Below are positions 25,400 through 29,864 of a stretch of DNA of 64,000 nucleotides, piece after piece (within the stretch, counting starts at the first letter, position 1; each line of letters starts with the position of its first letter). The DNA is from an uncultured archaeon (lineage in GTDB: Archaea; Asgardarchaeota; Lokiarchaeia; Sigyniarchaeales; SOKP01), in the NCBI GenBank assembly GCA_964486045.1, contig CAZALK010000003.1:160001-224000 (forward strand). Direction: 5' to 3'. The notes beneath the pieces were generated by a model that made no database searches, was not told the origin of the DNA, and was given only the letters and a program-made list of their open reading frames with translations. Made by a program: the position numbers and the translations under genes.

Positions 25400-25887
25400 G
25401 TATACTTCCGTTGATTTGTTTATCTTATTTTATTTACTAAATCATAATTTTTAATCTTGATTTAAATTCGAGATTATTAAAAGAAGAGAATCCTCCAATT
25501 CCTACTGAAAAAGATATTTTTAAACCAAAAGTTCTGCTTTTTGAAAGATTATCGTTCCTTTTAAATAATTCTAAATATATTTCTGTAATAAATAATCAGT
25601 TTTCTATTCTTATTAAATTTGTAAAAGAAATTTTAAAACTTGTTGACTTAAAAGAAAAGATGATTTTAGAAAACCTCAGAAAGCATCTTAGAAATGAACT
25701 AAATATTAATTGGAGATCAGATAACATTAAAAAAATTCTAATCGCTTTAAAAGTTTATAAGAAACTAATATTTGAAATTTAATAACAAATTTTGATGTAA
25801 GAAAAAAGTTGTACACACGGTTAATAAAGTTTAATTTAAACTAAAGACATTATTGTACTAAAAGGAAAGATGTATTAATTTTATAAA

Positions 25888-25894
25888 GGAGGTT
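25888..25894 (+). promoter_or_regulatory. Shine-Dalgarno site for the thiolase
   Basis: GGAGGTT, with its GGAGG core 8 nt upstream of ACG at 25901. Confidence 0.65.
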
Positions 25895-25900
25895 GTTAAA

Positions 25901-27106
25901 ACGGTTACTCATGGTATTAAAGATAAAGTTGCAGTAATCGGCTGCGATGCCACTAAATTTGGTGAATTGTGGGATAAAAGCAAAGAAGATTTACTGTTTG
26001 AATCTACTCAAGGCGCTATTAAGGATGCAGGGATTAAAAAAGATGAAATTGATGCTGCATGGCTCGGAGTTTATTATTTTTTCACAGGTGTTTCTGGAAC
26101 CACATTGGAAGATTCATTAAGATTAGGTGGGAAGCCTATAACTAGAGTTGAAAATTATTGCGCAAGCGGAATGGAATCTATAATACTTCGTTATTGATAT
26201 TCAAACGCTTTCCGCAATGCTTGTTTTGGTGTGGCATCGGGAGCTTATGATGTGGCATTAGCTTGTGGTGTTGAAAAGCTAATGGATGAAGGTGGTAGAG
26301 GATTGCCTGGAACAACAGTAATGGGACATCCAGTATTACCACGACCTTCAGCACCAGCTATGTTTTGTTTATTAGCTACTCGTAGTTTTCATGAATTCGG
26401 TTGGAGAAAAGAAGATCTAGCTCGTGTAGCAGTTAAGAATCACGAAAATGGATTTTATCATCCAAAGGCTCATTTCAGAATGAAAATTACATTAGAACAA
26501 GCTATGAATGCCCCAATGATAGCAGATCCACTCGGACGATTTGATTGTTGCGCGATGAGTGATGGTTCTGCTGCATTAATCCTTACTCGACCTGAATTAG
26601 CAGAGTCTTATGCTCATGCTGACGATTATGTTCTTGTTAAATCAAACTCACTTTCAGTTCATTCGGCTTATCCATGGTATGATCCAAAGTTTGATTTTAT
26701 ATGTGCTCCAGCTACGATTGATGCAGCAAAAATGGCATATAAAGAAGCAAACATTACAAACCCAAGAAAAGAAATTGATTTAGCAGAAGTTCACGATTGT
26801 TTTACAATAACTGAGTTATTAAATTGCCAAGATCTACAACTATGTGATAGTGGGAAAGCTGCCGAAGAATTACAAAAAGGTACTTTTAATTGGGATGGTG
26901 AAACTGCGATAAATCCAAGTGGTGGCCTAAAATCTTTCGGGCATCCTATAGGGAGTACTGGTTGTAGGATGGTTCAAGAAGTTACTAAACAACTTCAAGG
27001 AAGAGCTGAGGGAAGACAAGTACCTGATGCAAAAACTGGATTAGCTCACAATCTTGGTGGGGCTTATGCTGTCTGTTCTGTGACTATTTTAGGGCAGAGA
27101 GATTAA
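25901..27106 (+). CDS. acetyl-CoA acetyltransferase (SCP2-type thiolase), join(25901..26174,26205..27106), 391 aa after splicing
   Basis: N-terminus xVTHGIKDKVAVIG; spliced RVENYCASGMDAFRNACFGVASG; EVHDCF, NPSGGLKSFGHPIG and AHNLGG motifs; starts at ACG. Confidence 0.9.
26175..26204 (+). other. 30-nt bulge-helix-bulge intron in the thiolase mRNA
   Basis: exon helix AAGCG/CGCUU, central helix GAAU/AUUC, bulges GGA and AAA, intron helix AUC/GAU + AUAA/UUAU; carries an in-frame TGA. Confidence 0.88.
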
Positions 27107-27294
27107 AGTTTATTAAACATTTTGGAAACCGAAAATAGAGTTTCTTTCTTTCTTTCTTATTTCTTTTTCACAATTTCAGAGGTAGAAAGAAGACAAATAC
27201 AAAGTGATAAAAAAAGAACTATAATTTCAGTTTGTTTAATGTTTTCGAAAATTTATTTAAAAAATTATTTAATGATCTATTAATTTTGATTACC

Positions 27295-28178
27295 ATGAAT
27301 GAATCATTTAATAAATTTCAAGGAGACGTAAAAACCGATAATTTAAAGTATCTTGCAGATCCCCAACTTAGAAATATTGTAAATGTGTCTATTGCTTTAG
27401 AACGTCCCTTACTAGTAAAGGGAGAACCCGGAACCGGAAAAACTATGCTAGCTCACGCAATATCGCAGAGTTTGAGTAAAAAACTACTAATTTGGAATGT
27501 TAAAAGCACTACTGAGGCTATTGACGGGTGCTATATGTATGATACAGTTCAACGTTTAAATGATAGTAGATTTGGTTCAGAAGACCGAGACGTAAACAAA
27601 ATTCACGATTACATTACATTTGGTCCCCTTGGAGAAGCATTTGACGCTAACGAACAAGTTGTTCTCCTTATCGATGAGATCGATAAAGCAGATATAATGT
27701 CTAATAATAATTAGCATTACTGCATATTGAGTTTCCGAACGACTTGCTACAAGAATTAGATGTAATGGAGTTCTATGTAAAAGAGACAAAAGAATTTGTA
27801 AAAACTAAAAAGCGGCCAATAGTGATAATTACTTCGAATAATGAAAAAGAACTTCCAGATGCCTTCTTAAGAAGGTGTGTATTTCACTGGATTGAATTCC
27901 CTTCTAGAGGATTTATGACAGAAATATGTAATCTCCATTACCCAAATCTTAAAACAAATTTATTAGATCAATGTCTTAAACACTTTTATGCATTGCGCGC
28001 GATTACAAAACTTAGAAAATTGCCTTCTACTTCCGAACTCCTAGATTGGATTGGAGTACTTTTAAAAAGTGGGATTAGTATTGACCAATTAAAAAAAGAA
28101 ATTCCTTTCTTAGGTGTTCTCATAAAGAAAGAAAAGGATCTCGAATTTGCATTAGAAAAACTTAAATTTCCTTCATGA
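27295..28178 (+). CDS. MoxR-family AAA+ ATPase, join(27295..27693,27726..28178), 283 aa after splicing
   Basis: Walker A GEPGTGKT; spliced Walker B region LLIDEIDKADIEFPNDLLQELD; ITSNNEKELPDAFLRRC; PSTSELLDW. Confidence 0.9.
27694..27725 (+). other. 32-nt bulge-helix-bulge intron in the MoxR mRNA
   Basis: central helix GCAG/CUGC, bulges AUA and AUA, intron helices UAAUG/CAUUA and CUAAU/AUUAG; causes a TAG and a frameshift if unspliced. Confidence 0.88.
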
Positions 28179-28424: not shown

Positions 28425-29864
28425 TTAAAACCTCCCCCTAACTGGTCTACATTTCCAATAATAATTTTTAAATTCACCACCTTCATGCAGCCTTCGAAAT
28501 GTTAATTCAACTTCCGTTCCAATACGGACATTTTCTTCAGGGTTTTCGATTTCGGTCATATTTAACATAACTCGACCGCCACCATCCAAATCAATTACGC
28601 ATCTGGGAACTGGAGTATCATTATAAGCACCCCCTACTAAATGATCAAGAGAATATGTATAAATTTTACCTTTTAAAGCTAGTTTAATCAGTTCCAATTG
28701 GTCATCAGCCCTACATACGATACAAGAACGTGCTGTAGTGGGATACTGAATACTTCCACAGTTTTTACATTTAAGGCCATACATTTTATACACAGCAGGT
28801 GTATCTCGCCATAATGTTACAGCAGAACTTTTTCTTACATATCGGTCTTTTTCAAGAAGTTTTTTATTTTCAACGTAAACATTATAGTTTTTAAGAAGTT
28901 TCATTGATTGTTGATGTCCTGATAAGGCCATATGAGCTTGAGAAAGTTCTTTTAGAGCGTTTATATCATGAACGTGCAATAAAATCCCATCAGCACCATC
29001 ACCAAATCCAACTAACAATGCCTTTGCATTTTTTTTGGGATTTTTTAAGGCAGAGATTAATAATATAAAGGACATTGGAGTTCCGAGATCTCCAAATTGA
29101 AAGAAAAGTCCATTTTGAGCTACTCCCTGATTAAATTTCATCGCCTTTGAAACACGTCCATGTGTTCTAGGATTATTATAATAATATGCTGCGATATCAA
29201 TATCCTCAGGACTTAAGTCATTTCTTTCGATAATCTCAGACATTACTTTTGTAACACTTTGGGTATAAAATTGAGTATCCATTTTCGACTCAAAAGTTCT
29301 TATGAAGCTATCCTCCTTTGTTCTTTTCCACGGCCCTGTTACATTAGCCGAAATAGAATAATAGTCATCTATAACAAGTGGTAAATTTTCCCCTTCACTT
29401 AGGAGAAAAGCTGCAGCACCATCACCAAACGTAAATTCCCAAGTAGTAGCTGGCTCTGCTTCTCTCATATCTGAAGCAATAACAAGTATCTTTGAGACAT
29501 CCTTATTTGCTGTAATTGTGTCAACTGCTCTTGCTAACGCGGTTGTTCCTGCTTTTAGTGAGTCAGTGAAGTCTGCTGTTACAATATCTTCCCTTAAATC
29601 TAATACTGTTGCAATAAACGAGGAGGAATCCTTTTCAGTATACACTTGAGTAGTAGAGGCAAAAAATAAACCGTCAATACTTTTTGGATCAATTCCACTA
29701 AGACAATCTATACCAGCTTCAATAGCCATGGTAAGACTATCCTCATCTGCACTTGCAACAGCCTTGTTACCAGGAACAACAGGAAAATCCCAAGCTTTAG
29801 CGATCAACTCGCGAGGCATTACATACTTTGGTAAGTAAACACCATAAGATTTAATTCCAATCAT
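28425..29864 (-). CDS. HMG-CoA synthase-like + DUF35 (Zn ribbon/OB-fold) fusion protein, thiolase-associated
   Basis: MIGIKSYGVYLP...DEDSLTMA...GDGAAAF N-terminal domain; CKNCG...CIVC, GKIYTYS, VELTFRR, YYWK. Confidence 0.85.
   Translation of the reverse strand: MIGIKSYGVYLPKYVMPRELIAKAWDFPVVPGNKAVASADEDSLTMAIEAGIDCLSGIDPKSIDGLFFASTTQVYTEKDSSSFIATVLDLREDIVTADFTDSLKAGTTALARAVDTITANKDVSKILVIASDMREAEPATTWEFTFGDGAAAFLLSEGENLPLVIDDYYSISANVTGPWKRTKEDSFIRTFESKMDTQFYTQSVTKVMSEIIERNDLSPEDIDIAAYYYNNPRTHGRVSKAMKFNQGVAQNGLFFQFGDLGTPMSFILLISALKNPKKNAKALLVGFGDGADGILLHVHDINALKELSQAHMALSGHQQSMKLLKNYNVYVENKKLLEKDRYVRKSSAVTLWRDTPAVYKMYGLKCKNCGSIQYPTTARSCIVCRADDQLELIKLALKGKIYTYSLDHLVGGAYNDTPVPRCVIDLDGGGRVMLNMTEIENPEENVRIGTEVELTFRRLHEGGEFKNYYWKCRPVRGRF

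What the first reader, a model, noticed from the sequence alone, without database searches (positions are those of the whole stretch)
26164..27728. Candidate BHB-spliced mRNA introns in two adjacent protein-coding genes of a probable Asgard archaeon
Seen in sequence: two neighbouring genes (thiolase, MoxR ATPase) each carry a 30-32 nt AT-rich insertion. Each folds into a 3-nt bulge / 4-bp helix / 3-nt bulge motif, and all four bulges end in A. Cutting after the second nucleotide of each bulge restores the frame and the conserved protein motif exactly in both genes. The two inserts show no obvious sequence similarity; each complements its own exon flank. Both sit next to the most conserved motif of the protein (catalytic Cys; Walker B). 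Established: BHB motifs are cut by archaeal tRNA-splicing endonuclease (EndA) and ligated by RtcB, and mRNA introns of this type are known from few archaeal genes, mainly crenarchaeal cbf5. Inference: this lineage splices ordinary metabolic mRNAs, such introns may be common genome-wide and mis-annotated as pseudogenes, and splicing could gate expression because unspliced transcripts hit stop codons.
Basis: partly seen in the sequence, partly recalled or inferred. Interest (0 to 1): 0.96.

Follow-up and report, generated by a model that had tools for sequence, protein, structure and literature searches.

The report
Tiny tRNA-style introns in Asgard genes
Two neighbouring genes of an uncultured Lokiarchaeon (a thiolase and an AAA+ ATPase) are each broken by a ~30-base insert shaped like a tRNA intron, yet the broken genes stay under selection, so their mRNAs are almost certainly cut and re-joined by the tRNA-splicing enzymes, which the papers I could search confirm for only one archaeal protein gene (cbf5).

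Summary
Observation confirmed. Window 26175-26204 (30 nt, acetyl-CoA thiolase) and 27694-27725 (32 nt, AAA+ ATPase; the 'MoxR' label is not supported) each fit a canonical bulge-helix-bulge (BHB) motif. Cutting after the second bulge base restores frame and conserved motif.

- **Real DNA:** both inserts are in contigs of two samples and in other species and metagenomes.
- **Host genes stay functional:** ten intron-bearing ATPase alleles keep both exons open. Synonymous codon differences outnumber amino-acid changes by about 1.7-4 to 1.
- **Exon tuning:** the thiolase exon flanks pair at -12.8 kcal/mol, against -4.0 +/- 2.0 in 88 intron-less orthologs.
- **Possible mobility:** the same thiolase intron, with identical short flanks, sits in two paralogous thiolase types.
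- **Machinery:** a two-subunit EndA and RtcB are encoded.
- **More cases:** similar 30-33-nt inserts break at least five further genes here, including the only rpoA' copy. About 10 of 52 congeners have rpoA' interrupted at that site.

Weaknesses: no RNA data could be obtained, no compensatory covariation was seen, and a motif-only genome scan showed no enrichment over a control. 'Common genome-wide' is therefore only partly supported.

Verdict: bona fide EndA/RtcB-type mRNA introns (0.85). This is a new variant of a known kind. Earlier notes of this scan report similar introns in other archaeal genomes.

The parts
25901..26174 (+). Thiolase (acetyl-CoA acetyltransferase) exon 1. It begins at ACG where orthologs have ATG, and ends one base into the Asp codon that follows the catalytic-Cys motif CASGM.
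   Evidence: Pfam Thiolase_N profile 1-89. Orthologs start MV(A/T)HGIKDKVAVIG at this position.
26175..26204 (+). Intron 1, 30 nt. It comprises 1 nt of the 5' bulge, the hairpin 26176-26183/26191-26198 (loop 26184-26190), the central-helix 3' strand 26199-26202, and 2 nt of the 3' bulge.
   Evidence: Absent from about 105 orthologous loci. Present, 29/30 identical, in G022.
26164..26172 (+). Exon-1 part of BHB 1: outer-helix strand 26164-26168 (AAGCG) and central-helix strand 26169-26172 (GAAU).
   Evidence: Read directly from the sequence. The exon-flank duplex is -12.8 kcal/mol, against a mean of -3.97 in 88 intron-less contexts.
26205..27106 (+). Thiolase exon 2, including the stop at 27104-27106. 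Bases 26206-26210 (CGCUU) form the outer helix with 26164-26168.
   Evidence: Pfam Thiolase_N 94-258 and Thiolase_C_1. 93% amino-acid identity to the intact ortholog of L086, which scores as NCBIfam acetyl-CoA acetyltransferase above cut-off.
27295..27693 (+). AAA+ ATPase exon 1 (133 codons), ending LLIDEIDKAD, five codons after Walker B.
   Evidence: Pfam AAA 1-68/131. Ortholog alignment.
27694..27725 (+). Intron 2, 32 nt, which shifts the frame. Its hairpin is 27695-27699/27715-27719 plus 27701-27704/27711-27714, and its central-helix 3' strand is 27720-27723 (CUGC).
   Evidence: Also present in G020, G049 and 7 metagenome contigs. The central helix is paired in all 7 distinct copies.
27686..27691 (+). 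Exon-1 part of BHB 2: a 2-bp outer helix (27686-27687, pairing with 27727-28) and the central-helix strand 27688-27691 (GCAG).
27726..28178 (+). AAA+ ATPase exon 2 (150 codons plus stop).
   Evidence: Exactly 150 open codons in all 10 intron-bearing alleles. The intact ortholog gives a single AAA stretch, residues 42-188, across the junction.
28425..29864 (-). Neighbouring gene: a 479-aa ORF on the minus strand. I read it as an HMG-CoA synthase fused to a C-terminal DUF35-like Zn-ribbon/OB domain. If so, the interrupted thiolase sits in the archaeal mevalonate-entry module.
   Evidence: ORF and translation. The family assignment rests on my reading of the translation and was not tested against Pfam.

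Best explanation
Both inserts are archaeal bulge-helix-bulge (BHB) introns inside protein-coding mRNAs.

Proposed mechanism:
1. After transcription, each insert and its exon flank fold into a 4-bp helix flanked by two 3-nt bulges. This is stabilised by an intron hairpin and, for the thiolase, by a long exon-exon helix.
2. The genome's two-subunit, crenarchaeal-type splicing endonuclease EndA cuts after the second base of each bulge.
3. RtcB joins the exons and probably circularises the 30/32-nt intron.
4. Only the spliced mRNA encodes the full thiolase or ATPase. Unspliced RNA stops inside the insert.

Shown: motif geometry, exact restoration of the proteins, presence in independent DNA samples and species, purifying selection on intron-bearing genes, exon-flank tuning, and presence of the enzymes.

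Inferred: the cleavage and ligation themselves, the timing relative to translation, and any regulatory role.
For: 1. Canonical geometry, with cut sites that restore frame and motif to the base. The same rule fits a canonical tRNA-Ser 37/38 intron of this genome.
2. Shuffled inserts reach an equal BHB in 1.1% and 0.08% of trials.
3. Not an assembly artefact. Contigs of two samples hold both inserts without gaps. One strain difference inside intron 2 (27701 C>T) turns a C-G pair into U-G.
4. Intron 2 occurs in 3 of 54 congeneric species and in 7 metagenome contigs.
   - All 10 alleles keep exon 2 at exactly 150 open codons.
   - Pairs of alleles differ at 12-54% of codons, mostly 37-54%.
   - Synonymous-only differences outnumber amino-acid changes by about 1.7-4 to 1.
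   - The central helix and the five adjacent hairpin pairs are paired in every copy. The middle bulge base varies freely.
5. Intron 1 occurs in a second species and in a 92%-identical contig of another study. In that contig, 12 of the 13 listed differences fall on third codon positions.
6. The exon flanks of the intron-1 alleles pair at -12.8 kcal/mol. The mean is -3.97 +/- 1.96 and the best is -9.9 in 88 intron-less orthologs.
7. An EndA alpha-like subunit (best PDB match the A. pernix alpha subunit), a second EndA-domain protein and RtcB are encoded. Asgard EndA is reported as the broad-specificity (alpha-beta)2 type (PMC5829648).
8. Similar 30-33-nt inserts interrupt other genes here with Pfam continuity across the junction: RpoA', GH57, FlpD/MvhD, RhaA and DUF362. 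rpoA' is single-copy and is interrupted at that site in about 10 of 52 congeners. An essential gene could not tolerate this unless the insert is removed.
Against: - No RNA-level observation. No RNA run was listed, so spliced junctions and circular introns are unseen.
- No compensatory double changes in 7 distinct copies of intron 2. Only one-sided G-C to G-U changes were found, and the shuffle controls are not exceeded.
- Minimum-free-energy folds do not give the exact 3-nt 3' bulge. For intron 1 they prefer a shifted register, so the canonical fold competes with others.
- The outer helix of intron 2 is only 2 bp.
- A genome-wide search for BHB geometry that joins open frames found as many hits with a mirror-image control geometry. 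The motif alone is therefore weak evidence, and the case rests on homology-defined junctions.
- The thiolase has ACG in place of the orthologous ATG start. This could hint at decay.
Confidence: 0.85

Rival explanations
1. The inserts stay in the mRNA and are skipped by the ribosome. This would be programmed translational bypassing, as in phage T4 gene 60 or the 'byp' elements of yeast mitochondria.
For: Short hairpin-forming inserts with stop codons in otherwise intact, selected genes would also fit bypassing. No RNA data exclude it.
Against: - Bypassing needs matching take-off and landing codons. None exists at either insert.
- In the thiolase the restored Asp codon is built from one base before the insert and two after it. 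A hop cannot do that.
- For intron 2, landing on the only matching ATA puts the ribosome in a frame that soon stops.
- All inserts share BHB geometry with the cut fixed in the bulges. Bypassing gives no reason for that.
Confidence: 0.04
2. The inserts are removed from RNA, but by a different activity than EndA and RtcB (another endonuclease or ligase). The BHB-like fold would then be incidental.
For: Cleavage by EndA was not tested. The minimum-free-energy folds differ slightly from the canonical BHB. Some other introns here have only 3 of 4 central pairs.
Against: The cut positions predicted by the EndA rule are the only ones that restore the proteins, in nine of nine cases. The two-subunit EndA type reported for Asgard archaea accepts relaxed BHB motifs (PMC5829648). 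No other archaeal mRNA-splicing system is known, which is my own background knowledge.
Confidence: 0.05
3. The genes are pseudogenes, or the inserts are neutral lesions or assembly errors.
For: In-frame stops or a frameshift are present. The thiolase start codon is ACG. The public gene calls would presumably be split.
Against: - The inserts are identical in two samples and occur in other species and studies.
- Both exons stay open, and synonymous changes are in excess across ten intron-bearing alleles.
- G000 versus its closest thiolase ortholog differs at 146 codons synonymously and at 26 codons with an amino-acid change.
- The single-copy rpoA' carries the same kind of insert in about 10 of 52 species.
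Confidence: 0.03
4. The inserts are excised at the DNA level in a fraction of cells (programmed DNA elimination). An intron-less gene copy would then be the expressed one.
For: The inserts are short and AT-rich. Contigs cannot show rare variants.
Against: No joint or gap was seen at either insert in contigs at depth 260 and 69. Neither insert is flanked by direct repeats longer than 2 nt, and I noticed no recombinase gene beside them. BHB geometry would be unexplained.
Confidence: 0.02

Closest known systems
cbf5 pre-mRNA intron of Crenarchaeota (Aeropyrum, Sulfolobales, Desulfurococcales; Watanabe 2002, Yoshinari 2006, Yokobori 2009 = PMC2738675)
   Same: A short BHB intron inside a protein-coding gene. 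It is removed by a hetero-oligomeric EndA, and its distribution is patchy, with gain and loss.
   Different: The host genes differ: here a thiolase, an AAA+ ATPase, rpoA' and sugar and redox enzymes. Several genes are affected per genome. The lineage is Asgard (Promethearchaeota). Length is nearly uniform at about 30 nt. The same intron occurs in two paralogs. As of 2009, no archaeal gene other than cbf5 had confirmed splicing.
Archaeal tRNA and rRNA BHB introns (hBHBh' and relaxed HBh' forms; Marck and Grosjean 2003)
   Same: The same motif (a 4-bp helix between two 3-nt bulges), the same predicted cut positions, and the same enzymes. This genome's tRNA-Ser(GGA) intron obeys the identical rule. 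Asgard tRNA genes are reported to be heavily interrupted (bioRxiv 10.64898/2026.10.13.758758).
   Different: The exon part of the motif is coding sequence, so it must satisfy codon and RNA-pairing constraints at once. Failure to splice truncates a protein rather than disabling a tRNA.
HAC1/XBP1 unconventional mRNA splicing (IRE1 endonuclease; RtcB ligase in animals)
   Same: A tiny intron is cut from an mRNA by a protein endonuclease at structured sites and sealed by an RtcB-type ligase. Removal changes the reading frame, as intron 2 does. This comparison rests on my own background knowledge.
   Different: The endonuclease (IRE1) and its twin stem-loop motif are different. That system is a single regulated target in a stress response. 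No regulation has been shown here.
Translational bypass elements (T4 gene 60; mitochondrial 'byps' of Magnusiomyces)
   Same: Short structured inserts with stops inside conserved, functional genes.
   Different: Those elements stay in the mRNA and need matching take-off and landing codons. That was tested here and not met.

Membership tests
Archaeal BHB (EndA-type) intron | A 4-bp central helix flanked by two 3-nt bulges on opposite strands, built from exon-1 positions -6 to -3 and intron positions -6 to -3. | tested here: met
   Central helix is 4/4 pairs in both introns. Bulges are GGA and AAA for intron 1, and AUA and AUA for intron 2. The geometry rule was validated on a 37/38 tRNA-Ser intron of the same genome.
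Archaeal BHB (EndA-type) intron | At least one flanking helix: h (exon-exon) or h' (intron hairpin). | tested here: met
   Intron 1 has h = 5 bp (extended to about 12 bp in the fold) and h' with 7 of 8 positions paired. Intron 2 has h' = 5+4 bp and h = only 2 bp, which is the relaxed HBh'-like form.
Archaeal BHB (EndA-type) intron | Cutting inside the bulges (after the second base) and joining the exons gives the functional product. | tested here: met
   The spliced reading equals the uninterrupted orthologs without a gap. Pfam profile positions are continuous across the junction.
Archaeal BHB (EndA-type) intron | The host encodes the splicing endonuclease EndA and the ligase RtcB. | tested here: met
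   There are two tRNA_int_endo genes of about 200 aa, one of them closest to crenarchaeal alpha subunits, and one RtcB gene.
Archaeal BHB (EndA-type) intron | The intron is absent from mature RNA, and a linear or circular intron is released. | not testable with these tools
   No RNA run was listed for this DNA. Read laying had only DNA-derived contigs.
Archaeal BHB (EndA-type) intron | Base pairs are maintained by compensatory change across copies. | tested here: inconclusive
   In 7 distinct copies of intron 2, 90.5% of cells are paired and the central helix is 100% paired. However, there are 0 double changes and the shuffle controls are not exceeded.
cbf5-type pre-mRNA intron | Located in the cbf5 (pseudouridine synthase) gene of Crenarchaeota. 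| tested here: not met
   The hosts are a thiolase and an AAA+ ATPase of a Promethearchaeota MAG. The mechanism class is the same, but this is not the same intron family.
Programmed translational bypass element | Identical take-off and landing codons flank the coding gap. | tested here: not met
   There is no matching codon pair in a usable frame at either insert. The thiolase junction lies inside a codon.
MoxR (AAA_3) ATPase (the label given to the second host gene) | A match to the MoxR-type AAA_3 family, or to a curated MoxR model, above cut-off. | tested here: not met
   The intact ortholog hits AAA (PF00004) and AAA_5. The best NCBIfam match is the MadB family at 103 bits, against a cut-off of 475.

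The most novel reading that the evidence does not exclude
These roughly 30-nt BHB introns are mobile. They spread between paralogous and orthologous genes together with a few dozen bases of exon flank, and they settle in the most conserved motifs. If so, Lokiarchaeia carry an ongoing invasion of mRNA introns that depends on the tRNA-splicing machinery. That would mean ordinary and essential mRNAs need splicing before translation in the closest prokaryotic relatives of eukaryotes.

Support:
- The same thiolase intron (29/30 identical) with identical flanks lies in a c1-type gene of G000 and a c2-type gene of G022. These genes are 78% identical in amino acids, and identity outside the intron region is about 73%.
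- Thiolase orthologs elsewhere carry other 30-nt introns at two other catalytic motifs.
- rpoA' is interrupted in a patchy fifth of the genus.

Not excluded: a single old gain followed by losses and gene conversion. For intron 2, monophyly of the intron-bearing genes is not rejected (AU test p = 0.16).
Probability: 0.35. Interest if true: 0.92.

Novelty: new variant of a known kind. Interest (0 to 1): 0.85.

Why it matters
- **Scope of archaeal mRNA splicing.** It has been treated as a curiosity of one gene (cbf5). Here ordinary metabolic genes and the only rpoA' copy of a Lokiarchaeon need it, and the interrupted genes persist under selection across species.
- **Annotation.** Gene callers will split or drop such genes. 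Metabolic reconstructions of Asgard MAGs may therefore report false gaps, for example in the mevalonate-entry thiolase.
- **Cell biology.** In a cell thought to couple transcription and translation, an mRNA that must be spliced first raises the question of how premature translation is avoided.
- **Evolution.** This is a second, spliceosome-independent route to interrupted protein genes, in the lineage closest to eukaryotes. The hints of intron mobility can be tested with existing cultures and metatranscriptomes.

Tried and rejected
- **RNA evidence.** No RNA holder was listed for the 2.3-kb stretch or for the thiolase gene alone. The four runs laid were all contigs, and none is on record as RNA (three DNA?, one of unknown kind).
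- **Motif-only census.** I made three versions of a whole-genome scan: BHB geometry, open frames joined by removal, and a codon-usage score. I compared each with a mirror-image geometry. Counts were equal, apart from a small excess at 30 and 33 nt when both exons were at least 60 codons (29 vs 19 and 20 vs 11). I therefore dropped statistical claims from the scan and validated single candidates by Pfam.
- **Pfam check of 20 candidates**:
  - 5 were clear (RpoA', GH57, FlpD/MvhD, RhaA, DUF362).
  - Several were inconclusive (TP-family, two AIRS-like, a Ras-like GTPase, a LOR-domain gene).
  - 1 was a gene-gene junction (PFOR subunits).
  - 7 had no Pfam match, and 1 had only a below-cut-off match well downstream of the junction.
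- **HdrA-like hit.** It turned out to be an in-frame TGA at a Cys position, a likely selenocysteine and not an intron.
- **ARAGORN intron boundaries** were mostly unreliable in this genome.
- **Covariation** gave no double changes.
- **Non-monophyly of intron-2 hosts.** The AU test was not significant.
- **Relaxed selection on the G000 thiolase.** Lineage-specific substitution counts gave no sign of it, but the test had low power.
- **Literature.** Six full-text searches found nothing on BHB introns in Asgard protein genes. Subscription journals are not covered.
Full report
**What is there**

The window lies on contig C3 (160001-224000) of a 5.18-Mb, 31% GC, 45-contig genome. Its nearest public relatives are MAGs labelled Promethearchaeota or Promethearchaeia (Lokiarchaeia-type Asgard archaea) from marine sediments.

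A thiolase gene reads in one frame from 25901 to 26174, meets a TGA inside a 30-nt AT-rich insert (26175-26204), and continues in frame from 26205 to 27106. The next gene, an AAA+ ATPase, reads 27295-27693, is broken by a 32-nt insert (27694-27725) that shifts the frame, and continues 27726-28178.

Pfam places Thiolase_N profile positions 1-89 in exon 1 and 94-258 in exon 2. An intact ATPase ortholog gives one AAA stretch across the junction.

The 'MoxR' label is not supported. The protein hits AAA and AAA_5, and its best NCBIfam model (MadB family) scores far below cut-off. The intact thiolase ortholog scores as acetyl-CoA acetyltransferase above cut-off. The gene lies beside a 479-aa ORF on the opposite strand that I read as an HMG-CoA synthase with a DUF35-like tail. 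That reading comes from the translation alone and was not run against Pfam.

**The motif**

Each insert pairs with its own upstream exon in the canonical BHB arrangement:
- Exon-1 positions -6 to -3 pair with intron positions -6 to -3. These are GAAU/AUUC for intron 1 and GCAG/CUGC for intron 2.
- This leaves two 3-nt bulges: GGA and AAA for intron 1, AUA and AUA for intron 2.
- The rest of each insert is a hairpin.
- In the thiolase, five exon bases on each side also pair. The thermodynamic fold extends this exon helix to about 12 bp.

Cutting after the second base of each bulge gives exactly the protein of the uninterrupted orthologs. I checked the geometry rule on a canonical 37/38 intron of this genome's tRNA-Ser(GGA), which obeys it.

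Shuffling each insert 200,000 times and allowing 3 nt of slack gave an equally complete BHB in 1.1% of shuffles (intron 1) and 0.08% (intron 2).

Caveat: the minimum-free-energy folds draw the 3' bulge as 2 nt or 1 nt and, for intron 1, shift the register. The canonical fold therefore competes with other pairings.

**Not an artefact, not a pseudogene**

- Contigs built independently from two samples hold both inserts with no gap, at depths of about 260 and 69. The second sample differs at four bases. One of them, 27701 C>T, turns a C-G pair of the intron-2 hairpin into U-G.
- A contig from another study is 92% identical over 318 nt and spans intron 1 without a gap. Of the 13 differences listed for it, 12 fall on third codon positions.
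- Intron 2 is present in 3 of 54 species of the genus and in 7 metagenome contigs.
- In all ten intron-2 alleles, exon 2 is exactly 150 open codons. Pairs of alleles differ at 12-54% of codons (mostly 37-54%), and synonymous-only differences outnumber amino-acid changes by about 1.7-4 to 1.
- The G000 thiolase differs from its closest ortholog at 146 codons synonymously and at 26 with an amino-acid change.

These genes have therefore stayed functional while carrying the inserts.

**RNA-level constraint**

- In seven distinct copies of intron 2, the central helix and the five adjacent hairpin pairs are always paired. The middle base of the 3' bulge is U, G or A. All changes inside helices are G-C to G-U.
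- There are no compensatory double changes, so covariation neither supports nor contradicts the fold.
- For the thiolase, the two intron-bearing alleles use synonymous codons that make the exon flanks pair at -12.8 kcal/mol. The mean is -3.97 +/- 1.96 and the best is -9.9 in 88 distinct intron-less orthologous contexts.

**Distribution and hints of mobility**

- About 105 thiolase loci from relatives lack intron 1.
- The only other genome of the genus with it is G022, where the intron is 29/30 identical. There it sits in the other paralog type:
  - G000 is 93% identical to type c1 and 80% to c2.
  - G022 is 89% identical to c2 and 79% to c1.
- Identity between the two genes is about 73% overall but 97-100% over the intron plus 25 nt upstream and 16 nt downstream. 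This points to transfer or conversion of the intron together with short flanks.
- Two more distant MAGs carry different 30-nt BHB introns at two other catalytic motifs of the same enzyme: HDCFTIT|E and FDCCA|MSDG.
- For intron 2, a single origin is not rejected (AU test p = 0.16).

**Machinery and other genes**

The genome encodes an EndA subunit closest to crenarchaeal catalytic alpha subunits, a second EndA-domain protein and one RtcB. This fits the (alpha-beta)2 broad-specificity enzyme reported for Asgard archaea (PMC5829648).

A motif-only census failed: BHB geometry that joins open frames is as frequent as a mirror-image control. I therefore validated individual candidates by Pfam continuity:
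- Inserts of 30-33 nt interrupt RpoA', a GH57 enzyme, FlpD/MvhD, rhamnose isomerase and a DUF362 protein.
- Two further cases are probable.
- rpoA' is single-copy here and has a TAA inside.
- In the genus, 42 species have rpoA' uninterrupted, 5 have +30 nt with stops, and 5 have it split at the same site.

An essential gene interrupted in a fifth of the species is hard to explain unless the insert is removed.

**Rivals**

- Translational bypassing fails because no take-off and landing codons match, and the thiolase junction lies inside a codon.
- Pseudogene and artefact readings are contradicted.
- DNA-level excision has no support.
- Removal by an enzyme other than EndA cannot be excluded without biochemistry.

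**Novelty**

In the papers I could search, archaeal mRNA splicing is confirmed only for cbf5 and predicted for a few other genes (PMC2738675; PMC5829648). A 2026 preprint on Asgard tRNA introns does not treat mRNAs. Six searches found nothing on BHB introns in Asgard protein genes.

Earlier AI notes of this scan report similar candidates in this genome and in other archaea. One note claims an RNA-derived contig that lacks such an intron in a Jordarchaeum. I used these notes as leads only.

**Verdict**

The two inserts are bona fide BHB-type mRNA introns with probability about 0.85. The missing piece is direct RNA evidence.

Noticed in passing
window 25859-25967: The thiolase has ACG (25901-25903) exactly where ten close orthologs have their ATG start. 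A strong Shine-Dalgarno-like AAGGAGGT sits at 25887-25894. There is no ATG, GTG or TTG in frame before 25967. The second sample has the same sequence. This is either near-cognate initiation or a first sign of decay.
   Followed up: partly
G000:C13:44101-44130 (+), locus L165/L185: The only rpoA' gene is interrupted by a 30-nt BHB insert carrying a TAA, between GHFGH and IELARP. Across the genus, 5 of 52 species have +30 nt with stops at this site and 5 more have the gene split there.
   Followed up: yes
L132:2501-3439 and L133:2501-3439 (thiolase orthologs of two other Promethearchaeota MAGs): Different 30-nt BHB-type inserts lie at two other catalytic motifs of the same enzyme (HDCFTIT|E and FDCCA|MSDG). 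Cutting by the BHB rule restores the conserved residues, including the Met of AMSDG.
   Followed up: partly
G000:C7, minus strand, around 192000 (locus L180): An HdrA-like gene reads FPTDDCSI-TGA-ILGP where HdrA proteins have DCSxC. This is a likely selenocysteine codon and not an intron.
   Followed up: partly
G000 loci L167, L170, L177, L182, L166, L168: Further 30-33-nt BHB inserts. GH57, FlpD/MvhD, rhamnose isomerase and DUF362 genes show Pfam continuity across the junction. Probable cases are a thymidine-phosphorylase-family gene (DKHST|GGVPGN) and an AIR-synthase-like gene.
   Followed up: partly
whole genome G000: ARAGORN finds only 31 tRNA genes in 5.18 Mb and calls introns in 20 of them, many with implausible boundaries. 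Many tRNA genes are probably hidden by non-canonical introns.
   Followed up: no
window 28425-29864 (-): A 479-aa ORF that looks like an HMG-CoA synthase fused to a C-terminal DUF35-like Zn-ribbon/OB domain lies next to the thiolase on the opposite strand. This rests on my reading of the translation and was not run against Pfam.
   Followed up: no
window 27701: A strain polymorphism (C>T) in a second sample falls inside the intron-2 hairpin and converts a C-G pair to U-G.
   Followed up: yes
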